64,000 nucleotides of DNA from Pristiophorus japonicus (lineage: Eukaryota): contig NC_091984.1 in the NCBI RefSeq assembly GCF_044704955.1, forward strand, positions 178,374,001 to 178,438,000, written 5' to 3'. Of the stretch, positions 3,689 to 61,527 are shown piece after piece; the stretch's first letter is position 1, and every line of letters starts with the position of its first letter. A program made the position numbers and the translations under genes. The notes beneath the pieces are model-generated. The model saw nothing but the letters and a program-made list of their open reading frames with translations. It was not told the DNA's origin and did not search any database.

Positions 3689-6600
3689 CTCTTTTTGGAG
3701 TTCACCTGCAAAAATATAAAACATTAAACCGTGCCACCCGACCTGGGTGACACACCAGACATTTACAAGGCCCTTTTTTCCTTTTTTTTGTTTTTTTTTT
3801 GTGTTTTTCATTTTTTGGGGGGTTTTTTTGGGCGCTAAAATCACATTTTTCCAGTGCCCCCTATAAAAGGGAAGGGGACACTAAAAGCACCGGCAATTAA
3901 AACAAATTAAACTTTAAAACGTAAAATCATATTAAAATTTGGTTGCCGGGCGTGATGATGCACTCCAGTCCCTCCGGTGCCCACCTCTCGCGGAAGGCCG
4001 CGAGCGTACCGGTGGACACCACGTGCTCCATCTCCAAGGACACCCTGGACCGGATGTAAGAGCGGAAGAGAGGCAGGCAGTCAGGTTGAACGACCCCCTC
4101 GACCGCCCGCTGCCTGGACCGGCTGATGGCACCCTTGGCTGTGCCCAGGAGCAGTCCTACGAGGAGGCCCTCGGACCTACCCGCTCCCCTCCGCACAGGG
4201 TGCCCAAAGATCAGGAGAGTGGGACTGAAGTGCAGCCAGAATTTCAGGAGCAGCCCCTTCAAATAATGGAACAGGGGCTGCAACCTCGTGCACTCGATAA
4301 AAACATGGAACACGGACTCCTCCAGACCGCAGAAATTGCAGGCGGCCTGGGAGTCCGTGAACCGGCTTAAAAATTTATTGCACGGCACTGCTCCGTGCAC
4401 CACCCTCCAGGCCAAGTCCCCGATGAATAGTGGGAGGACCCCTGCGTAGAGTGCCCTCCATCGGGGACCCCCGCCTCCTCCGGACGGCAAGATGGTATGC
4501 CATGGCGTGTCCGGACGGCCGGCGAGGATGGCAAAGTTGAGTACCCAAAGGTGAAACTCTTTTTGGAGTTCACCTGCAAAACATAAAACATTAAACGGTG
4601 CCACCCGACCTGGGTGACACTCCAGACATTTACAAGGCCCTTTTTTTTTTTTTCCCCCTTTTTTTTGTTTTTTTTTGTGTTTTTCTTTTTTTGGTTTTTT
4701 TTTGGGCACTAAAATCACAATTTTCCCCAGTGCCCCCTATAAAAGGGAAGGGGGACATAAAGGTGAAACTCTTTTGAGTTAACCTGCAGAAACATAAAAC
4801 ATTAAAACCATGCCACCCGACCTGGGTGACACACCAGACATTTTCAAGGCCCCTTTTTTTTTTTTGGTTTTTGGTTTTTTTTTGGGGCGCTAAAATCAAA
4901 TTTTTCCAGTGCCCCCTATAAAAGAGAAGGGGGACACTAAAAGCACCGGCAATGAAAACAAATTAAACTTTAAAACGTAAAATCAAATTAAAATTTGGTT
5001 GCCGGGCGTGATGATGCACTCCAGTCGCTCCGGTGCCCACCTCTCGCGGAAGGCCGCGAGCGTACCGGTGGACACCGCGTGCTCCATCTCCAAGGACACC
5101 CTGGACCGGATGTAAGAGCGGAAGAGAGGCAGGCAGTCAGGTTGAACGACCCCCTCGACCGCCCGCTGCCTGGACCGGCTGATGGCACCCTTGGCCGTGC
5201 CCAGGAGCAGTCCTACGAGGAGGCCTTCGGACCTACCCGCTCCCCTCCGCACAGGGTGCCCAAAGATCAGGAGAGTGGGACTGAAGTGCAGCCAGAATTT
5301 CAGGAGCAGCCCCTTCAAATAGTGGAACAGGGGCTGCAACCTTGTGCATTCAATAAAAACATGGAACACGGACTCCTCCAGACCGCAGAAATTGCAGGCG
5401 GCCTGGGAGTCCGTGAACCGGCTTAAAAATTTGTTGCACGGCACTGCTCCGTGCACCACCCTCCAGGCCAAGTCCCCGATGAATAGTGGGAGGACCCCTG
5501 CGTAGAGTGCCCTCCATCGGGGACCCCCGCCTCCTCCGGACGGCAAGATGGTACGCCATGGCGTGTCCGGACGGCCGGCGAGGATGGCAAAGTTGAGGGT
5601 GTGCAGGAGCAGCCCGTACAGGAAACCCCTCCGCGCGGAACTGAAAGGCACGGAGGGGATTTCCCCGAGGCGGCTCAAGTTGTGAGGCGCCGGCCCCCGA
5701 GGGAGGTTCCGGGGTTTGGCGCCAATGAGGAATTCCGTCCGGACCGGGGTCAGTTCGGACGGGATCTCCCCATGTGCTTGAGCCTCCTCGATGCACCTAA
5801 CGGAGTCAGGGCCCAGAGCTGTTTTTAGCGACTCGATGGCATCGGCCGCGTGGCGGACGTTGGCAGAATTTAGGCGCCGCGCCAGCGTGTCTGGCGCCAT
5901 CCAGCCCGCTCCTCCGCCATCGAGCAGGTCCCTGACCCTGGTCACCTCACCAGCCACAGCCCTCTCTTCCGACCGCCACATAAAACCTCGGCCGTGGAGG
6001 TACGGATTCCCGAGCAGCGGTTCCTGCAGGACGGCCGCCACTCCAGCCGGCGGAGAGCTGCGCTTGGTGGAGACTTTGTTCCAGACCCTGATGAGTTCCC
6101 TGTAAAAGACAGGCAGCTCCCGGAGGGCGGTCCTGGCACCCCCCAAGTTCACAAACAGGAGCTGCGTGTCATAATTGAGGTCGAGCTGCTGGCGGAAGAA
6201 ATACCTCGCCAGAGCGCACCACCTAGGAGGGGGCTCGACATAAAGGTATCTCTGCAGGGTCTGAAGACGGAAAGTCGCGAGCTGGGCGCTGACGCACACC
6301 AACGACTGACCGCCCTCCTCAAGCGGGAGACTCAAGACCGCGGCAGAGACCCAGTGCTTCCTGTTGTTCCAGAAGAAGTCCACCAGCTTCTTCTGTATCT
6401 TGGCGACAAACGCAGGGGGAGGGGTCAAAGTGACCAGCCGGTACCACAGCATTGCGGCCACCAGCTGGTTTATGACTAGCGCTCGACCCCTGTAGGACAG
6501 CACTCGGAGCAGTCCTGTCCAGCGCCCTAGGCGAGCGGCAACCTTGGCCTCCAGCTCCTGCCAGTTCGCCGGCCAGGCTCCCTCGTCGGAGCTAAGGTAG

Positions 6601-7346
6601 ACTCCCAGATAGAGGAGATGGGTCGTGCTCCAGGCAAAAGGCCTGAGCTCCTCCGGCAGGGAGTCCACCCGCCACTGACCCACCAGGAGTCCGGAACATT
6701 TCTCCCAGTTGATCCTGGCGGAGGACGCGGCCGAGTAAATCTCCTGGCACTCACGCATCCTCCGCAGGTCAGCGGGATCCTCTATCGCGAGGAGCACGTC
6801 ATCGGCGTAAGCCGAGAGGACGACCTCCACGCCCGGCCCTTGCAGAGCCAGTCCCGTCAACCTCGTCCGCAAGAGGCGCAGGAAAGGCTCCACGCAAACG
6901 GCGTATAACTGGCCGGACATGGGGCATCCCTGGCGCACCCCTCTCCTAAAGCGAAGGGGCGCCGTCAAGGACCCGTTAACCTTAATCAGACACTCCGCGG
7001 CGGCGTACAAAAGTCGGATCCGGGCGACGAAATGCGTCCCGAACCCGAAAGCGCGCAGAGTTCCGAGCAGATAGTCGTGATCCACCCTGTCGAACGCCTT
7101 CTCTTGGTCGAGGGATAGGAAGGCGACCGACAGACCAGCCTCCTGGGAACAATGGATGAGGTCCCGGACCAGATGGATGTTATCGTGGATTGTCCGGCCC
7201 GGGACCGTGTATGACTGGTCGGGGTGGATCATGTGGTCCAGCACGGCACCAAGGCGAGCAGACATCGCCCTGGCGAAGATTTTGTAGTCCGTGCTGAGGA
7301 GGGAGACCGGGCGCCAGTTCTTAAGGAGGCGGAGATCGCCCTTCTT
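3689..7346 (-). mobile_element. Head-to-tail array of three 5'-truncated Tx1-clade LINE copies (4769-7346, 4557-4758, 3689-4542)
   Basis: Near-identical 3' UTRs ending ...AAAAGAG, each followed by TTTCACCTTT(GGGT); copies are separated only by this duplicated target sequence. Confidence 0.9.
4983..7265 (-). CDS. Tx1-clade ORF2 reverse transcriptase (frame open to the 5' truncation at ~7346; endonuclease missing)
   Basis: NWRPVSLLSTDYK, LDQEKAFDRVDH, GVRQGCPMS, YADD, YLGV and C-terminal CNFC..EESVFHVFIEC knuckle; 760 uninterrupted codons suggest a young insertion. Confidence 0.9.
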   Translation of the reverse strand: MSARLGAVLDHMIHPDQSYTVPGRTIHDNIHLVRDLIHCSQEAGLSVAFLSLDQEKAFDRVDHDYLLGTLRAFGFGTHFVARIRLLYAAAECLIKVNGSLTAPLRFRRGVRQGCPMSGQLYAVCVEPFLRLLRTRLTGLALQGPGVEVVLSAYADDVLLAIEDPADLRRMRECQEIYSAASSARINWEKCSGLLVGQWRVDSLPEELRPFAWSTTHLLYLGVYLSSDEGAWPANWQELEAKVAARLGRWTGLLRVLSYRGRALVINQLVAAMLWYRLVTLTPPPAFVAKIQKKLVDFFWNNRKHWVSAAVLSLPLEEGGQSLVCVSAQLATFRLQTLQRYLYVEPPPRWCALARYFFRQQLDLNYDTQLLFVNLGGARTALRELPVFYRELIRVWNKVSTKRSSPPAGVAAVLQEPLLGNPYLHGRGFMWRSEERAVAGEVTRVRDLLDGGGAGWMAPDTLARRLNSANVRHAADAIESLKTALGPDSVRCIEEAQAHGEIPSELTPVRTEFLIGAKPRNLPRGPAPHNLSRLGEIPSVPFSSARRGFLYGLLLHTLNFAILAGRPDTPWRTILPSGGGGGPRWRALYAGVLPLFIGDLAWRVVHGAVPCNKFLSRFTDSQAACNFCGLEESVFHVFIECTRLQPLFHYLKGLLLKFWLHFSPTLLIFGHPVRRGAGRSEGLLVGLLLGTAKGAISRSRQRAVEGVVQPDCLPLFRSYIRSRVSLEMEHAVSTGTLAAFRERWAPERLECIITPGNQILI

Positions 7347-7501
7347 AAAAAGACAGCACCTCCAACAGTGCAGTATGCCCTCAGTGCTGCACTGGGAGCA
7401 CTAGCATAGATCTTTGTGCTCAAGTCCCTGGAGTGGGATCTGAACCCACAGCCATTCTGACTCAAAGGCAAGTGCGCTACCCACTGAGCCACAGCTGACA
7501 C
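7347..7501 (-). mobile_element. SacSINE1-like SINE 5' head (tRNA-derived)
   Basis: gtggctcagtgggtagc (A box) and gggttcagatccc (B box) continuing into the SINE body. Confidence 0.8.
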
Positions 7502-24949: not shown

Positions 24950-26547
24950 CATACTGTCTGTGTGAATTCAGAGCTGAGCTGTATTGTGTCAGTACTGTCT
25001 GTGTGAATGCAGAAACTGTACCATACCAGTACTGTCTGTGTGGATGCAGAAACTGTACCAGGCCAGTACTGTCTGTGTGAATGCAAAAACTGTGCAAAAG
25101 CAAAATACTGTGGATGCTGGAATCTGGAATAAAAACAGAAAATGCTAGAAATCTCAGCGGGTCAAGCAGCATCTGTGGAGATAGAAAACAGAGTTAACGT
25201 TCCGGGTTGATGACCCTTCATCAGAACTGCATTCTGACGAAGAGTTATCAACCCGAAACGTTATCTCTGCTTTCTCTCCACAGATGCTCCCTGACCCGCT
25301 GAGATTTCCAGCATTTTCTGTTTTTATTCCATCCCAGTACTGTCTGTGTGAATAAAGAAACTGTACCATGCCAGTACTGCCTGTGTGAATACAGAACTGT
25401 ACCATGCCAGGACTGTCTGTGTGAATAAAGAAACTGTACCATGCCAGTACTGCCTGTGTGAATACAGAACTGTATCATGCCAGTACTGTCTGTGTGAATA
25501 AAGAAACTGTACCATGCCAGTACTGCCTGTGTGAATACAGAACTGTATCATGCCAGTACTGTCTGTGTGAATAAAGAAACTGTACCATGCCAGTACTGCC
25601 TGTGTGAATACAGAACTGTACCATGCCAGTACTGCCTGTGTGAATACAGAACTGTACCATGCCAGTACTGCCTGTGTGAATACAGAACTGTACCATGCCA
25701 GTACTGCCTGTGTGAATACAGAACTGTATCATGCCAGTACTGTCTGTGTGAATAAAGAAACTGTACCATGCCAGTACTGCCTGTGTGAATACAGAACTGT
25801 ACCATGCCAGGACTGTCTGTGTGAATAAAGAAACTGTACCATGCCAGTACTGCCTGTGTGAATACAGAACTGTATCATGCCAGTACTGTCTGTGTGAATA
25901 AAGAAACTGTACCATGCCAGTACTGCCTGTGTGAATACAGAACTGTACCATGCCAGTACTGCCTGTGTGAATACAGAACTGTACCATGCCAGTACTGCCT
26001 GTGTGAATACAGAACTGTACCATGCCAGTACTGCCTGTGTGAATACAGAACTGTACCATGCCAGGACTGTCTGTGTGAATAAAGAATCTGTACCATGCCA
26101 GTACTGTCTGTGTGAATACAGAACTGTACCATGCCAGGACTGTCTGTGTGAATAAAGAAACTGTACCATGCCAGGACTGTCTGTGTGAATACAGAACTGT
26201 ACCATGCCAGGACTATCTGTGTGAATACAGAACTGTACCATGCCAGGACTGGCTGTGTGAATACAGAACTGTACCATGCCAGGACTGGCTGTGTGAATAC
26301 AGAACTGTACCATGCCAGGACTGGCTGTGTGAATACAGAACTGTACCATGCCAGGACTGCCTGTGTGAATACAGAACTGTACCATGCCAGGACTGCCTGT
26401 GTGAATACAGAACTGTACCATGCCAGGACTGCCTGTGTGAATACATAACTGTACCATGCCAGGACTGTCTGGGTGAATACAGAACTGTACCATGCCAGGA
26501 CTGTCTGTGTGAATACAGAACTGTACCAATCCAGGACTGTCTGTGTA
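24950..26547. repeat. 36/37-bp minisatellite in C22orf39 intron 1
   Basis: Unit ctgtgtgaatacagaactgtaccatgccagtactgc; about 33 units at 25331-26547 plus about 4 degenerate units left of the inserted inverted repeat. Confidence 0.95.
25094..25330. mobile_element. Back-to-back inverted pair of Penelope-like terminal repeats
   Basis: About 100-bp arms forming a long palindrome centred at ~25230; each arm starts with a hammerhead-like core. Confidence 0.65.
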
Positions 26548-35365: not shown

Positions 35366-38300
35366 TGATATGTCCTTACTATACAGTATAAATGCACACG
35401 AGGCCCATACTTGAGAGAAGGTCACTCTGTGACCAGTTATCTTTATTACCAATACCTCAAGTGATGAAGGTGGGTGGAGCTTCCCCTTTTATACTGGAAA
35501 GTCCAGGTTAGGAGTATCTCCCACAAGTTCACCCCTTGTGGTCAATGTTCTAAAGGTGCACAACTTAGGTCAGCTTATACATGGGTTACACTGAAAGTTG
35601 AATACATGACATTACCTCCCCGGCAAAGTCTTTTTGGGATCACAGGTTAAGTCTTTCTGGTGGTTTACGCTCCCTTGTAGAGTGCCTGAGTTTGGGCTCC
35701 GGTTGTTGGGCGCTGGCCTGAGTGTCTGCTGTTTGCGGTGCCTCAGGCCTGCCCGGACTGCCCACAGTGACTGGGCTCTCCTCCACTTGGTTCCAGTGTT
35801 CGGTCACCTGTAGTGGAGTAAACTCTACGCGTGTTCTTCCTCTGCTTCTTCTATGGGGTTGCTGAACCTCCTTTTAGTTTGATCCACGTGTTTGCGGCAG
35901 ATTTGTCCATTGGTAAGTTTAACTACCAAAAGCCTATTCCCCTCTTTGGCAATCACAGTGCCTGCAAGCCATTTGGGTCCTGCAGCGTAATTAACGACTA
36001 AAACAGGGTCATTGACATCAATACATCGCGCCCTCGCATTCCTGTCATGGTAGTCACATTGTGATTGGCGCCTGCTCTCAACAATTTCTTTCATAGTAGG
36101 GTGTATAAGGGATAACCTGGGTTTGAGCATGCTTTTCATTAGCAGCTCTGCGGGTGGAACCCCTGTGAGCGAGTGTGGTCGGGATCTATTGGCCAACAGG
36201 AGGTGTGATAAGTGGCTTTGTAGGAAACCCCCTTGGATTCTGAGCATCCCCTGTTTGATTATCTGCACTGCTCGTTCCGCCTGGCCGTTTGAGGCCGGCT
36301 TGAACGGTGCCGTTCTGACATGGTTGAGTCCATTGCCTGCCATGAAGTCCTGGAATTCAGTGCTTGTGAAGCATGGGCCATTGTCGCTGACCAAGACATC
36401 TGGTAGACCATGGGCGGCGAACATTGCCCGTAGACTTTCTACCGTGGCAGAGGATGTGCTTGAATTTAAAATGGCACACTCAATCCATTTGGAGTAGGCG
36501 TCTACTACAATCAAAAACATTTTTCCCATGAAAGGACCTGCGTAGTCTACATGGATGTGTGACCATGGCTTGGCGGGCCAGGACCAGGGGCTGAGGGGAG
36601 TTTCCCTGGGTGCGGTGCCCAACTGAGCACACGTGTTGCACCTGCGAACACAAAGTTCCAGCTCACCAAACTTTTGACCTGGCAATTGCCTTCATCATGA
36701 CAATGCCCGGGTGCTCATTGTGAAGTTCTCTGATAAACACCTCTCTGCCCATCTGGGGCATGACTACTCGGTTTCCCCACAGTAGGCAATCAGCCTGAAT
36801 CGAGAGTTCATCCTTGTGCTTATGAAACGTTTAAATTCCTCGGGGCATGGCTGCCCAGTCCCCATTCAGGACACATTTCTTAACTAAAGACAGTAGCAGG
36901 TCTTTATTTGTCCAGACTTTAATCTGATGGGCTGTCACAGGTGAGCCTTTGCTTTCGAAAGCTTCAACAGCCATGACCATTTCAACATCATGCTCAGGTG
37001 TCCCCTCAGTGGTGGCTAGTGGGAGCCTGCTGAGTGCATCTGCGCAGTTTTCAGTGCCCAGCCTGTGCCGAACTGTGTAGTCATAGGCGGCTAACGTGAG
37101 TGCCCACCTCTGTACGCGGGCCGATGCTTTCACATTTATGGCCTTGTTGTCGGCCAAAAGGGACGTTAGGGGTTTGTGATCTGTCTCCAGCTCAAATTTC
37201 CTGCCAAACAGGTACTGTGCATTTTTTTTACTGCATATACATATGCTAGCGCTTCCTTTTCTACCATCCCGTAGCCCCTTTCTGCCTGGGACAGACTTCT
37301 GGAGGCATAAGCTATCGGCTGTAACTGACCAATGGCATTCACATGCTGCAACACACACCCGACCCCATAGAATGATGCATCGCATGTTAAAACATGTTTC
37401 TTACATGGGTCATATAACGTTAACAGTTTGTTGGAGCATAACAAATTGCGTGCTCTATCAATAGCCCTTTCCTGGCTGTCCCCCCAGACCCAATCCCGAC
37501 CTTTGCGTAGGAGCACGTGTAGCGGCTCTAACAGTGTGCTCAATTTGGGAAGAAAGTTAGCAAAATAGTCCAGGAGCCCCAAGAACGAACGCAGCTCCAT
37601 TGTATTACGGGTTGTGGGTGCTCTCTAGATCGCTTCCATTTTGGATGCAGTAGGTCTGATCCTGTCTGTTGCTACCCTCCTCCCCAGGAATTCTACCTCT
37701 GGAGCTAAGAAGACGCACTTCGCCTTTTTCAGTCGCAACCCTACCCGGTCCAGTCTGCGTAGCACCTCCTCCAGGTTGTGGAGGTGTTCTTCAGTATCGC
37801 GACCTGTGATGAGGATGTCGTCTTGAAAAACCACCGTCCTTGGAATCGACGTGAGAAGGCTTTCCATATTTCGCTGAAAGTTCGCGGCGGCCGAACGAAT
37901 CCCAAACGGACATCTGTTATACTCAAACAATCCCTTGTGTGTCGTGATGGTGGTCAGCTTCTTCGACTCACTCGCCAGCTCCTGGGTCATGTAAGCTGAG
38001 GTCAGGTCCAATTTTGAAAAAGGTTTGCCACCGGATAGCGTCGCAAAGAGGTCCTCCGCTCTCGGTAGCGGGTACTGGTCTTGGAGTGACACCCGATTAA
38101 TGGTGGCCTTGTAATCACCACATATCCTGACCAACCCATCCGCCTTGAGCACCGGCACGATCGGGCTCGCCCAGTCACTGAATTCGACTGGTGAGATGAT
38201 GCCTTCCCTCAGCAGGCGGTCCAATTCGCATTCTATCTTTTCCCGCATCACATACAGCGCCGCTCTAGCCTTGTGGTATACTGGCCTGGCGTCCGGGTTT

Positions 38301-40085
38301 ATGTGAATCCCTACCTTGGCCCCCATGAAAGTGCCGATGCCAGGTTGAAATAATGAGTCAAATTTGCCCAGGACCTGTGAGCATGATACTTTCTCCACAG
38401 AAGAAATTGCATTGACATCGCCCCATTTTCAGTTCATGACAGTAAGCCAACTCCTCCCCAGCAGTGCGGGACCGTCCCCTGGGACAATCCAGAGTGACAA
38501 CCTGTTCTCCGAATCTTTGTGGGTCACGACTACTGTGGCGCTGCCTAGCACCGGAATGATCTCCTTTGTATATGTCCGTAGCTGTGCGTCAATCGGCAAT
38601 AATTTTGGCCTCCTGGTTTGGACACCCACAACCTTTCGAACTGTTTGATACTCATCAGGGACTGGCTGGGCCCCGGTGTCTAGCTCTATTAATACTGGGA
38701 TGCCATTGAGGAGCACTTTCATCATTATCGGTGGCGTCCAGGTATATGAACTGTATATATCCTCCACATGAACTCGCTGAACTTCAGCTTCCAGCGATTT
38801 CCCCTGGTATTCATTTGGCCTCGTAGGGTTTACATCGGGCCCGTCCTCCTCGTACATCAACCTGGCTGCAGGCTTCCTGCACGTACGCGCCAAGTGACCG
38901 CTGACGTTGCAGTTTCTGCAGGTATATTGCTGATACTGCAAGCTCTGACTGGGTGTTTGCCTCCACACCTCCAGCATGAGCTGGAGGCCCCGTTGTAGGA
39001 AACAAAAGATTCATTACCAGTCGATCTCTGACTGTCTCTGACTGTCTCTGTAACTGTCCTTAAGTGCACCATTAACAGGTGTTGATGGCCCCATTATCTA
39101 TTGCGATGGCATGAACTGCCATTCAGCTAACCATTGTCAGTGTTGAATTCCCCCTTGGGTTCGACTACATGATGGGGCATGTCCGATTGCCCTTGGCTGC
39201 CTAGAGAACTGTGTGCGTGTTAACAATGTTGACTCTCTGGTCGTTTGCCGCATTTGAGCCAAGATTTTTGTCATACAACATTCTGGTCTCTTCCTCCCCT
39301 GAGATAAATGCCTGGGCTATCAGAGCTGCCGCTTCCAAGGTTAAGTCTTTGGTCTCAATCAGTTTCCTGAAAGCCCCAGCGTGCCAGATGCCCTCAATAA
39401 AAAAGTCTCGCAGCATCTCCACTCTGCATGCATCTGGGACTTACATAGGCTCGCCAGTTGCTGGAGATCTGCCATGAAGTCCGGAATGCTTTGCCCTTCT
39501 CGCCGCCGGTGTGTGTAAAACCGCTGTCTCGCCATGTGCATGCTGCTCGCTGGTTTAAGGTGTTCCCTGATCAACTTACTGAGCTCTTCGAACGTCTTGT
39601 CCGCCGGCTTCTCTGGCGCTAGAAGGTCCTTCATCAGGGAGTACGTTCTGGATCCACAAACCGTCAGGAGACGAGTCCTGCGTTTGTCAGCCGAATCCTG
39701 TCCCAACCATTCCTTAGTGACAAAACTTTGCTGTAGTCTCTCAATAAAGTCGCCCCAATCATCACCAACACAGTACCTCTCTTCTGTGCTGCTAGTGGCC
39801 ATGCTCCCGTGGTTTAAATCCCAGTTTTTCATCGCCAATGATATGTCCTTACTATACAGTATAAATGCACACGAGGCCCATACTTGAGAGAAGGTCATTC
39901 TGTGACCAGTTACCTTTATTACCAAGACCTCAAGTGATGAAGGTGGGTGGAGCTTCCCCTTTTATACCTGAAAGTCCAGGTTAGGAGTGACTCCCACAAG
40001 TTCACCCCCTTGTGGTCAATGTTCTCAAGGTGTACAACTTAGGTCAGCTTATACATGGGTTACAATGATAGTTGAATACATGACA
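35366..40085 (-). mobile_element. Full-length decayed Gypsy (Mag-type) LTR retrotransposon
   Basis: LTRs 35366-35611 and 39839-40085 (TG...CA; about 11 substitutions + 1 indel by eye); 5-bp TSD GATAC; PBS TGGCGATGA (tRNA-Ser-like); purine tract beside the 3' LTR; PR-RT-RH-IN order. Confidence 0.95.
35825..39802 (-). pseudogene. Gypsy gag-pol, frameshifted
   Basis: Gag with two CCHC knuckles, protease LDTGA, RT FQDD, RNase H FELETDHKPL, integrase HVDYAGPF / VSDNG / SNGQAER, split over several frames. Confidence 0.9.
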
Positions 40086-57781: not shown

Positions 57782-59984
57782 AGAATTAGGAGCAGGAGTA
57801 GGCCATTCGGCCCCTCGAGCCTGCTCCGCCATTCAATGAGATCATGGTTGATCTTCTACCTCAATTCCGCTTTCCTGCATTATCCCCATATCCCTTGATT
57901 CCCTTAATTTCAAAAATCTATCGATCTCTGTCTTCAATATACGACTGAGTAGAGAATTCCAAACATTCAGCACCCTCTGAGTGAAAAGATTTCTCCTCAT
58001 CTCAGTCCTAAATGCCCGACCCCTTATTCTGAGACTGTGAGCCCTGGTTCTAGATACACCAGCCAGGAGAAACATCCTCCCTACATCTACCCTGTCAAAT
58101 CCTGTAAGAATTTTGTACGTTTGAATGAGATCACCTCATTCTTCTAAACTCTAGAGAATCTCTACTCAATCTCTCCTCATAGGACAATCCCCCCATCCCA
58201 GGAATCAGTCTGGTGAACCTTCGTTGCACTCCCTCTATGGCAAGTGTATTCTTCCTTAGGTAAGGAGACCAAACCTGTACACAATACTTTTGGTGCGGTC
58301 TCACCAGGGCCCTATATAATTGCAGTAAGATGTCTTTACTCTTATACTCAAATCCTCTTGTAAAAAAGCCATCATACAATTTGCTTTCTTAATTGCTTGC
58401 TGTACCTGCATGTTAACTTTTAGTGATTCCTGTACAAGGACACCCAGGTCCTTCTGAACACCAACATTTCCCAATCTCTCACCATTTAAAAAATACTCTG
58501 CTTTTCTATTTTTCCTACCAAAGTGGATAACTTCACATTTCTCCACATTATATTCCATTTTCCATGTCCTTGCCCACTCACTTAGCCTGTCTATACCCCT
58601 TGAAGTCTCTTTTCATCCTCCTCACAATTTATATTCCCACCTAGCGTTGTATCATCAGCAAACTTGGATATATTACATTTGGTCCCCTCATCCAAATCAT
58701 TTATATAGATTGTGAATAGCTGGGGCCCAAGCACCGATCCTTGCTAGTTATAGCCTGCAAACCCAAAAATGACCCGTTTTTTCCTACTCTGTTTCCTGTC
58801 CGTTAACCAATCCACGCATATTATCCCCAATCCCAAGAGCACTAATTTTGTTCAATAACCTCTTGTGTGGCCTTCTGAAAATCCAAATACACCAAATCCA
58901 AAGGTCCCCCTTGTCTATTGTGCTAGTTACAACCTCAAAAACCTCTAAGGTTTTGTCAAACATGATTTCCTTTTCATAAATCCATGTTGACTCTGCCCAA
59001 TCCTATTATTATTTTCTAAGTGCCCTGCTACCATGTCCTTAATAATGGATTCTAGCATTTTCTCTACTACTGATGTCAGGCTAACTGGTCTGTAGTTCCC
59101 CATTTTCTCTCTCACTCCTTTCTTAAATAGTGGGTTACATTTGCTACCTTCCAATCCGCGGGAACCATTTTAGAATCTATGGAATTTTGGAAGATGACAA
59201 CCAATGCATCCACTATCTCTACAGCCACCTTTTACAAAACCCTTGGGTGTAGGCCATCTGGTCTAGGGGATTTATCGGCTTTCAGTCCCATCAATTACTC
59301 CAGTACTGTTTTTTTATTAATATTTTCTTTCAGTTCCTCATTCTCGCTAGACCCTTGGTACTCCACTATTTCCAGAAAGTATTTGTTTAATTTCTTTGCT
59401 ATTTCCTTATTCCCCATTATAATTTCTCCTGCCTTGGCCTGTAGCAGATCCACATTTACTTTTGTTAATCTTTTCCATTTTACATATCTATAGAAGATTT
59501 TACAATCCGTTTTTATGTCTCTCGCTAGTTTACTCTCATAATCTATTTTCTCTTTCTTTATCAATTTTTTGGTCCTCCTTTGCTGAATTCTAAAATCCTT
59601 CCAATCCTGAGGCCTTTTTGGCAACATTATAAGCCTCTTCCTTTGTTCTAATACTATCTTTAATTTCTCTTGTTTGCCATGGTTGAACCACTTTTCCTGT
59701 GGGGTTTTTGTGCCTTAAAGGACTGTATGTTTGTTCGAAATTATATATTCATTCTTTAAATGCTAGCCATTGCTTATCTACCGTCATATCTTTTAACGTA
59801 GATTCCCAATCTATCTTATCCAACACTCCCCTTATAACCACGTAGTTTACTTTGTTTAGATTTAAGACCCTAGTTTCAGATTTAACTAAATCACTTTCAA
59901 ACTTAATGTAAAGTTCTATAATATAATGGTCACTCTTCCCTAAGGGCCCCTTTACTACAAGCTTATTAATTATCCCTTTCTCAT
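57782..59984 (-). mobile_element. CR1 LINE ORF2 and 3' end; 5' part continues at 61528-61850
   Basis: EKGIINKLVVKGPLGKSDH, NYRPVSLTSVV, QHGFMKRKSCLT, MEYNVEKCEV, HSLRIRGRAFRTEMRRN. Confidence 0.9.
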
Positions 59985-61527
59985 AGCCCCTCCCACGTGA
60001 TATTGCTGGTGTGGCAGGCAGATGCGGCGTGGCAGATTGAAGCTGGAGCACGGCCCAGGCTGCTCGCGGTGTGTGAGGCCCGGAGCTAGCACCATACGAA
60101 GCGGTGCTGGAGAAGCTGCGTGAGCACCAGCTGCAGCGGGGCAGGGCCTGCGGACCGACCATGGCAGCCCTGCCCCTACAGCAGCCGAGCTACCTGCTGG
60201 TGAGTGTGCAGGGGCCCGGCAGCAGTCGCCAGCCCCGCCCCGTGCTCGGCTCCTCTGCGCTTAACTTGTTCCTCCTGTGACCGCGGCTCAGGCCCGCTCC
60301 ATTCTCGCAGCGGAGACTGAAGCCTTCAACCACCCGAGCTCCCCTCCCACTTGCAGTTGGGCTCTGCCTGAGCGTTCTGTTCCCCGGGACCAGCTCGGAT
60401 TGCGGAACAGGCTTGGAGGGGCTGAATGGCCTACTCCTGTTCCTATGAATATTGTCACCCAGAGCTCAGCCCGACTGTGAAACTGAATCATTTGCATTGC
60501 TGGAATCACCTTCAGTATGAAAGCATACATTGGATAGGCTGGGTTTGTTTTCTTTGGAACAGAGGATGCTGAGGGGGTATCTTACTGAGGTGTATAAAAT
60601 TATGAGAGGCCTAGATAGAGTGGATAGGACGGACCTATTTCCCTTAGCAGAGGGGGTCAACAACCAGGGGGCATAGATTTAAAGTAATTGGTAGAAGGTG
60701 TAGAGGGGATTTGAGGGGAAATTTCTTCACCCAGAGGGTGGTGGGGGTTTGAAACTCACTGCCTAAAATGGTGGTTGAGGCAGAAACCCTCACCATATTT
60801 AAAAAGTACAGAAGAACATAAGAACATAAGAATTAGGACTAGGAGTAGGCCATCTAGCCCCTCGAGCCTGCTCCACCATTCAACAAGATCATGGCTGATC
60901 TGGCCGTGGACTCAGCTCCACTTACCCGCCCTCTCCCCGTAACCCTTAATTCCCTTATTGGTTAAAAATCTATCTATCTGTGACTTGAATACATTCAATG
61001 AGCTAGCCTCAACTGCTTCCTTGGGCAGAGAATTCCAGATTCACAACCCTCTTGGAGAAGAAATTCCTTATCAACTTGGTTTTAAATTGGCTCCCCCGTA
61101 TTTTGAGGTTGTGCTCCCTAGTTCTAGTCTCCCCGACCAGTGGAAACAACCTCTCTGCCTCTATCTTGTCTATCCTTTTCATTATTTTAAATGTTTCTAT
61201 AAGATCACACCTCATCCTTCTGAACTCCAACGAGTAAAGACCCAGTCTACTCAATCTATCATCATAAGGTAACCCCCTCATCTCCGGAATCAGCCTCATG
61301 AATCGTCTCTGTAACCCCTCCAAAGCTAGTATATCCTTCCTTAAGTAAGGTGACCAAAAACTTGGTACTTGGATGTGCACTTGAAGCGCTGTACCCTACA
61401 GGGCTACGGACCAAGAGCTGGAAAGTGGGATTAGGCTGGATAGCTCTTTGTCAGCTGGCACGGATACGATGGGCCAAAATGGCCTCCTTCGTGCTGTAAA
61501 TTTCTATGATTTCTATGATTCTATGAT
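59985..61527 (+). mobile_element. Chimeric retroposed insert: GC-rich gene-derived head + CR1 3' end (with a minus-strand CR1 nested at ~60812-61360)
   Basis: Splits the host CR1 exactly at LDLVLCN|EKGIIN (ctcat|tgcacaat); ends in a (ttctatga)n CR1 tail. Confidence 0.8.
60161..60199 (+). pseudogene. SMPD4: Captured SMPD4-like first coding exon
   Basis: ccgaccATGG Kozak; MAALPLQQPSYLL versus recalled human SMPD4 MAFPHLQQPSFLL; GTGAGT donor follows at 60200; no downstream SMPD4 exon found in the window. Confidence 0.6.

What the first reader, a model, noticed from the sequence alone, without database searches (positions are those of the whole stretch)
59985..61527. CR1-tailed chimera carrying the unspliced 5' end of an SMPD4-like gene
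Seen: a 1.5-kb insert splits a CR1 exactly at LDLVLCN|EKGIIN. Its head is a CpG-rich ~175-nt leader, a strong-Kozak ATG, 13 codons MAALPLQQPSYLL, a GTGAGT donor and ~330 nt of intron-like sequence, fused to a CR1 3' end with a (ttctatga)n tail. Known (from recall): SMPD4 begins MAFPHLQQPSFLL-ASLKAD and lies in the same conserved linkage block as Hira in mouse. Inference: CR1 RT switched template onto, or was 5'-transduced from, SMPD4 pre-mRNA, depositing a portable first-exon cassette (start codon + donor) that could splice to downstream exons. CR1 is usually considered stringent for its own RNA, so host-exon capture is notable.
Basis: partly seen in the sequence, partly recalled or inferred. 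Interest (0 to 1): 0.7.

Follow-up and report, generated by a model that had tools for sequence, protein, structure and literature searches.

The report
CR1 chimera carrying SMPD4's first exon
A single, decaying copy of the start of the SMPD4 gene (first exon plus the beginning of its first intron) sits fused to the tail of a CR1 jumping element 12 million bases from the real gene, likely made when the element's copying enzyme jumped onto an unspliced SMPD4 transcript, and it is probably not used as an exon.

Summary
Window 59985-61527 interrupts an older CR1-like element and carries a copy of the 5' end of the one SMPD4 gene found, which lies 12.1 Mb away on the same contig. Anatomy: leader, 13 codons, donor, 248 nt of intron 1, 82 nt of unknown origin, then a CR1 3' end with ATTCTATG repeats. 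The true intron 1 holds a same-family CR1 end at the matching place, but it carries five lineage alleles that the window's CR1 lacks, and the two share no non-CpG derived site. That favours a template switch from another CR1 RNA onto SMPD4 pre-mRNA, likely tethered by the intron's CR1 (0.6), over read-through 5' transduction (0.25). A tree test does not separate them. The copy lacks the gene's CCAAT array, loses CpGs 11:3 against the gene and faces away from both neighbouring genes, so a working portable exon is unlikely. A rare, dead, mechanistically informative chimera.

The parts
57790..59984 (-). Older CR1-like host element, 3' part (left flank)
   Evidence: Kin at 88-91%; 43 of 582 sites (7.4%) from kin majority over 59401-59984; its own 3' tail near 57790-57820; family name recalled from sequence look
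59985..60160 (+). Copy of SMPD4 5' leader; homology starts at about 59988, 3 unmatched nt before it
   Evidence: 28 of 147 aligned sites differ from the gene's leader; starts 20 nt behind the last of 9 upstream CCAAT boxes of the gene, none copied
60161..60199 (+). Copy of the 13 coding codons of SMPD4 exon 1
   Evidence: Gene has MVALPLQQPSYLL, copy MAALPLQQPSYLL; 4 of 48 nt differ incl. donor; gene's exon 2 follows in phase 0
60200..60405 (+). Splice donor and unspliced start of SMPD4 intron 1
   Evidence: Collinear with the gene, which lacks several blocks (32, 28, 5, 19 nt) present here
60406..60447 (+). 42-nt 3' tail (stem-loop) of another retroelement, already in intron 1
   Evidence: Many genomic matches at 83-98%; present at the same place in the gene; folds as a hairpin, z -2.8
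60448..60529 (+). 82-nt spacer of unknown origin; inferred: ancestral intron since lost from the gene, or junction filler
   Evidence: Only itself found in the genome search; weak likeness to the CR1 5' part, 87 of 2000 shuffles as good, uncorrected
60530..60809 (+). 5'-truncated CR1, end of ORF2 (first piece)
   Evidence: Kin at 91-93%; longer kin encodes RVT_1, E 9e-33; 7.0% from kin majority
60810..61364 (-). Younger CR1-like element inserted later, flanked by a 4-nt duplication (GTAC)
   Evidence: Kin at 96-97%; 14 of 521 sites (2.7%) from kin majority; ends read
61365..61527 (+). CR1 3' end with ATTCTATG-type repeats (61500-61527)
   Evidence: octamer ATTCTRTG is the CR1 tail in PMC8665684
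61528..61840 (-). Older CR1-like host element, upstream part (right flank); right limit approximate
   Evidence: Continues the left flank as in 19 of 19 kin; 19 of 323 sites (5.9%) from kin majority

Best explanation
The insert is a single-copy, decaying chimera of the SMPD4 5' end and a CR1 3' end, likely made when CR1 reverse transcriptase, primed in an older CR1-like element, copied about 440 nt of a CR1 RNA and then likely jumped onto an unspliced SMPD4 transcript and copied it back to about its start. The jump was likely tethered by pairing of the new cDNA with the same-family CR1 copy in SMPD4 intron 1 and favoured by the gene lying on the same chromosome. Shown: anatomy, source gene, single copy at search sensitivity, CR1 in the source intron, allele mismatch between the two CR1s, CpG decay, later nested insertion. 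Inferred: RNA template, the jump, the tethering, loss of the 82-nt spacer from the gene, silence of the copy. Split of the 0.6: homology-tethered 0.5, untethered with a coincidental later CR1 in the intron 0.1.
For: (1) 3' end exactly at the CR1 tail repeats, 1-2 nt overlap with the target, host unbroken in 19 of 19 kin: target-primed insertion. (2) 5' end 20 nt behind the last CCAAT box, none of 9 boxes copied, intron unspliced: fits a pre-mRNA. (3) In the shared span the intron's CR1 has five alleles (window positions 60545, 60583, 60613, 60637, 60711) of a lineage also seen in 2 of 3 copies not chosen by likeness; the window's CR1 has none; 0 non-CpG derived sites shared (17 in window, 18 in gene); linkage 414-454 p 3e-4, 454-485 p 7e-5 over 58 kin. 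(4) A same-family, same-strand CR1 just behind that tail is unlikely by accident: 4 other copies in 374 kb, 0 of 22 other tails directly followed by one, 3 of 52 kin start behind a tail; my arithmetic gives about 0.7%. (5) Source within 12.1 Mb: 0.4% of the genome (post hoc). (6) Ages agree: host 5.9-7.4%, inserted CR1 7.0%, nested 2.7% from kin majorities; head 12.1% vs CR1 parts 8.6% non-CpG from the gene, p 0.16. (7) The gene's 5' region loses blocks readily (7 gaps against the copy; its CR1 also has indels), so loss of the spacer there is plausible. (8) Template switching is reported for stringent LINEs (PMC4476161 section 10; PMC5729268 passages).
Against: The AU test does not reject window + intron CR1 as one clade (p 0.42, careful tree, 58 rows x 390 columns, bootstrap unsettled; p 0.78 with a failed quick search). 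The family is reticulate (51 of 55 site pairs four-gamete incompatible), so later gene conversion of the intron's CR1 is possible, and similar-lineage copies lie 79-367 kb from it. Kin sets were chosen by likeness to one or the other copy, which inflates allele sharing. A clean homologous switch would have carried the intron CR1's 183-nt 5' part; the window has 82 unexplained nt there instead. The transcription start of the gene is not known, so RNA versus DNA template is not shown. No outgroup genome was available.
Confidence: 0.6

Rival explanations
1. 5' transduction: a transcript from the SMPD4 promoter ran through exon 1 and intron 1 into the resident CR1 end, was recognised in trans by CR1 protein and copied whole; the two CR1s differ today because the intron's copy was later converted by neighbours.
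For: Same family, same strand, same place; lengths alike (969 nt in the gene, about 985 nt here); AU test does not reject common origin; family reticulate and related copies nearby; obeys CR1 stringency; mechanism described for SVA and L1 (PMC4859970, PMC8232201 passages).
Against: 0 shared non-CpG derived sites and five discordant lineage alleles, with lineage alleles also upstream (column 155) and non-lineage sites in between, which fits another master better than one conversion tract; needs 183 nt of CR1 skipped or replaced as well; does not explain why the copy landed on the same chromosome.
Confidence: 0.25
2. DNA-level capture: either the CR1 cDNA invaded the intron's CR1 in the chromosome and copied DNA upstream (strand-annealing route, recalled for L1, not read here), or a repair event first placed the SMPD4 piece in the host element and a CR1 later inserted at its end.
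For: Same chromosome, intron retained, start site unknown; spacer could be junction filler.
Against: Copy stops right behind the CCAAT array rather than at an arbitrary point; a two-step route needs a CR1 exactly at the junction plus a second, coincidental CR1 in the gene.
Confidence: 0.11
3. The cassette is a working first exon (the real SMPD4 exon 1, or one recruited by a neighbouring gene).
For: ATG context, 13 open codons and donor intact; 10 CpGs kept in both copies; head CpG o/e 0.60.
Against: SMPD4 has its own exon 1 with CCAAT array and in-phase exon 2, 12 Mb away; CpG to TpG/CpA 11 here vs 3 in the gene; 4 of 48 changes fit neutral decay at about 7%; C22orf39/PANTS-like and UFD1 are on the minus strand, CDC45 exon 205 kb away; of 294 non-repeat plus-strand frames of 45 aa or more downstream, the 150 longest were scanned and only a retroelement protease hit.
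Confidence: 0.04

Closest known systems
U6-L2 / U6-L1 template-switch chimeras (PMC4476161, section 10 and passages read)
   Same: Cellular RNA head fused to a short 3' end of a LINE, also for stringent LINEs (L2), with small or no target duplications; one unresolved U6-CR1 case in turkey.
   Different: Head here is an unspliced protein-coding pre-mRNA 5' end, single event, and the source intron holds a same-family element.
5' transduction of SVA and L1 (PMC4859970, PMC8232201, passages read)
   Same: Upstream host sequence beginning near a promoter carried in front of the element; source locus holds the element behind that sequence.
   Different: Element part here does not match the source copy's alleles; CR1, not the poly(A)-binding L1 machinery.
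SVA_F1 (MAST2 first exon joined to SVA; PMC4859970 passages)
   Same: CpG-rich first exon of a host gene on a retroelement tail.
   Different: SVA_F1 arose by splicing and amplified as a subfamily; this copy is unspliced and single.
PittSINE, tRNA head gained by a CR1-mobilised SINE through template switching (PMC5729268 passages)
   Same: CR1 reverse transcriptase proposed to switch to a cellular RNA.
   Different: Pol III head that founded a family; here a Pol II pre-mRNA head with no amplification found.

Membership tests
CR1-clade LINE (3' part) | 3' octamer microsatellite ATTCTRTG | tested here: met
   Tail repeats at 61500-61527; motif as given in PMC8665684
CR1-clade LINE (3' part) | 3' hairpin before the microsatellite | tested here: inconclusive
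   A hairpin is predicted at 61460-61497 but z -0.87, 35 of 200 shuffles fold as well
CR1-clade LINE (3' part) | Belongs to an RT-encoding family | tested here: met
   Longer kin L052 gives RVT_1, E 9e-33
CR1-clade LINE (3' part) | RT phylogeny places it in CR1 rather than L2 | not tested
   No reference RT set on hand; clade name rests on the tail and on recall of ORF2 C-terminal sequence
LINE template-switch chimera | One insertion: head and LINE tail inside one target site | tested here: met
   Host continues across both ends as in 19 of 19 kin
LINE template-switch chimera | Head from a cellular RNA, same orientation as the LINE | tested here: inconclusive
   Orientation met; RNA origin inferred from the 5' end behind the CCAAT array, start site unmapped
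LINE template-switch chimera | LINE part not templated by the source locus | tested here: inconclusive
   Five discordant alleles and 0 shared non-CpG sites versus AU p 0.42
5' transduction | Source locus holds the element behind the carried sequence | tested here: met
   610-nt CR1 end 168 nt behind the donor, same strand
5' transduction | Copy's element descends from the source element | tested here: inconclusive
   Site evidence against, tree test neutral
Processed pseudogene | Introns removed, poly(A) tail, target duplication | tested here: not met
   Intron kept, CR1 tail, no duplication over 2 nt
New SINE-like family | Multiple copies of the same head + tail | tested here: not met
   Head found at 2 places only, window and gene; 0 of 52 kin show a gene-like head, one GC-rich repeat-like flank; counts are lower bounds
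Functional alternative first exon | Spliced transcripts from the donor | not testable with these tools
   Needs RNA of this species

The most novel reading that the evidence does not exclude
Stringent CR1 elements capture host first exons by a local, homology-tethered jump: cDNA begun on a CR1 RNA pairs with a same-family copy in the nascent pre-mRNA of a gene on the same chromosome and copies it to its start. This would be a general route to exon shuffling in CR1-rich genomes that are thought to make few retrocopies, and would predict more such chimeras, enriched near their source genes.
Probability: 0.25. Interest if true: 0.65.

Novelty: new variant of a known kind. Interest (0 to 1): 0.38.

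Why it matters
CR1 is described as generally unable to make retrocopies because it recognises its own 3' end (PMC5470649, PMC8232201 passages). This locus shows host coding sequence moved with a CR1 tail without breaking that rule, and it keeps both product and source, so template switch and 5' transduction can be told apart once an outgroup is read. It also warns that a same-family element at the source is not proof of transduction. As a single, decaying copy it has no shown effect on the host.

Tried and rejected
No RNA holder listed: no evidence either way on expression. The 82-nt spacer and the right junction were not shown bridged by short-read contigs (no depth at 60488-60516, 60466-60508); contigs drop such pieces, so this proves nothing, but the spacer is unverified. 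Runs of two other organisms (X5, X6) gave no cover of the head at 80%, so no outgroup. Horizontal origin of the head considered because it is 17.1% from the gene versus 9.5% for the CR1 parts (p 0.002); rejected since the excess vanishes without CpG sites (p 0.16). Spacer as a worn piece of CR1: local score reached by 23 of 500 and 87 of 2000 shuffles, several targets tried, gene's copy ranks 7 of 59; not accepted. My rate-based odds for chance alleles are overconfident given the reticulate family and were not used. Pfam gave no hit for 4 short CR1 pieces of the window. Rows left out: L062 (near-identical to L061), L128 and L136 (same loci as L068, L056), L044 and L049 (over 13% from majority, interrupted), and 1 of 4 unselected copies (split). 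Earlier findings: nothing by place, words or sequence. Literature: 10 searches listed no report of a CR1 carrying an unspliced protein-coding 5' end; two returned 0 papers, the library lacks most subscription journals, and Suh 2015 was not held, seen only as cited. No supplements were read.

Full report
Observation. The flanks are two halves of one older CR1-like element on the minus strand; 19 of 19 kin copies run unbroken across the site, and the only overlap is 1-2 nt shared with the tail. Lack of a target duplication is usual for this family: 29 of 52 kin show no flank repeat of 4 nt or more. Short-read contigs of one sample span the left junction and head with 0-2 differences.

Source. 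The head matches one other place in the 5.9-Gb genome, G000:C8:166320312 downward (counts are lower bounds). All 14 matches of Pfam mit_SMPDase lie directly behind it on the same strand, and exon 2 opens in phase 0 after the 13 codons. The gene has 9 CCAAT boxes within 803 nt of its ATG; homology to the window begins 20 nt behind the last one. The copy follows the gene through leader, exon, donor, intron and a 42-nt retroelement tail. Behind that tail the gene has a 610-nt CR1 3' end of the same family and strand; the window has 82 unmatched nt and then a CR1 that starts 183 nt further in.

Age and decay. Host 5.9-7.4%, inserted CR1 7.0%, the gene's CR1 7.7%, nested element 2.7% from kin majorities. 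Head versus gene: 60 of 350 sites differ, but 34 of 281 outside CpG, not different from 35 of 409 for the CR1 parts (p 0.16). CpG has become TpG or CpA 11 times in the copy and 3 times in the gene, as expected of a methylated, unused copy (inference). The gene lacks seven blocks of 1-32 nt present in the copy, the copy lacks two.

Transduction or switch. A same-family CR1 right behind the tail in the gene is unlikely to be unrelated: 4 other such copies in 374 kb of unselected DNA, 0 of 22 other tails followed by one, 3 of 52 kin starting behind a tail, about 0.7% by my arithmetic. But the two CR1s do not look like parent and copy. They differ at 50 of 430 sites, like ordinary kin, share 0 non-CpG derived sites (17 and 18), and the gene's copy carries five linked alleles also found in 2 of 3 copies not chosen by likeness, none of which the window has. 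Against this reading: the AU test does not reject a common origin (p 0.42), the family is reticulate (51 of 55 pairs), related copies lie 79-367 kb from the gene's CR1, and the kin sets were chosen by likeness. The source lying within 0.4% of the genome (post hoc) fits capture in the nucleus better than an exported particle. I therefore favour a jump of CR1 reverse transcriptase from an active CR1 RNA onto unspliced SMPD4 RNA, likely tethered by the intron's CR1 (0.6), over read-through transduction with later conversion (0.25) and DNA-templated routes (0.11). The 82-nt spacer is unexplained in all of them; the simplest guess is ancestral intron lost from the deletion-prone gene.

Function. 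The insert lies between MRPL40 (plus, 14-17 kb) with a PANTS-like/C22orf39 exon (minus, 24.6 kb) on the left and UFD1 (minus, last coding exon 133 kb to the right; located with recalled motifs and Pfam); HIRA domain exons lie left of the window and a CDC45 exon 205 kb to the right. Of 294 non-repeat plus-strand frames of 45 aa or more downstream, the 150 longest were scanned and gave only a retroelement protease; short exons would be missed. With no promoter array, CpG decay and no same-strand partner found, use as a first exon is unlikely (0.04). The intact ATG, frame and donor are what 7% neutral change over 48 nt would often leave. Gene names MRPL40, C22orf39 and SMPD4 are recalled equivalents of the Pfam families hit.

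Known relatives. CR1 is described as recognising its own 3' end and rarely making retrocopies (PMC5470649 passages; PMC8232201 passages; PMC3747384 passages; PMC8665684 passages). Template switching is reported for stringent LINEs with U6 (PMC4476161 passages and section 10), for CR1 with a tRNA (PMC5729268 passages) and for SINE heads (PMC4494074, PMC7245038 passages); 5' transduction is known for SVA and rare for L1 (PMC4859970 passages). Ten searches listed no CR1 chimera with an unspliced protein-coding 5' end, in a library that lacks most subscription journals. It works like a U6-LINE chimera or a 5' transduction; it is not a processed pseudogene and not a family (0 of 52 kin with a gene-like head).

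Verdict. Real, single, dead chimera; new variant of a known kind; interest 0.38. Its value is mechanistic: product and source are both preserved, and a genome-wide scan would show whether CR1 captures first exons of nearby genes as a rule.

Noticed in passing
L002:1700-2050 (G000:C8:166320310-166320660) and L021: SMPD4 promoter has a tandem-like array of CCAAT boxes, 8 within 488 nt of the ATG, several about 40 nt apart.
   Followed up: partly
L121, L122 (G000:C8:166183268, 165952680); copy at about C8:166240900: The two best matches to the intron CR1 among 40 scored lie 137 and 367 kb from it and share 6-7 derived alleles; suggests local hopping or local gene conversion in this CR1 family.
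   Followed up: partly
G000:C8:178255114-178264816: The same part of the Hira Pfam domain (positions 167-210) matches twice, 9.6 kb apart: possible duplicated HIRA exon.
   Followed up: no
window 3927-7400 (-): Non-LTR element with an 805-aa open frame and a near-identical second copy of its 3' end next to it (3927-4736), CpG-rich, probably young.
   Followed up: no
window 35825-39961 (-): LTR-retroelement-like frames (gag, protease, RT, integrase look) broken by stops; described only.
   Followed up: no
L027:4269-6182 (+): 638-aa open frame with a retroelement aspartyl protease match, about 47 kb right of the insert.
   Followed up: no
window 25329-26546: 36-nt tandem array, 33.6 copies, 93% matches, next to the PANTS-like exon.
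   Followed up: no
G000:C969:13031-13174: Best CDC45 match lies on a separate small contig while another lies on C8 at 178640579: part of the gene may be unplaced.
   Followed up: no
L067, L148, L149: 3 of 52 copies of this CR1 family begin just behind the tail of another retroelement, roughly tenfold more than tail density suggests.
   Followed up: partly
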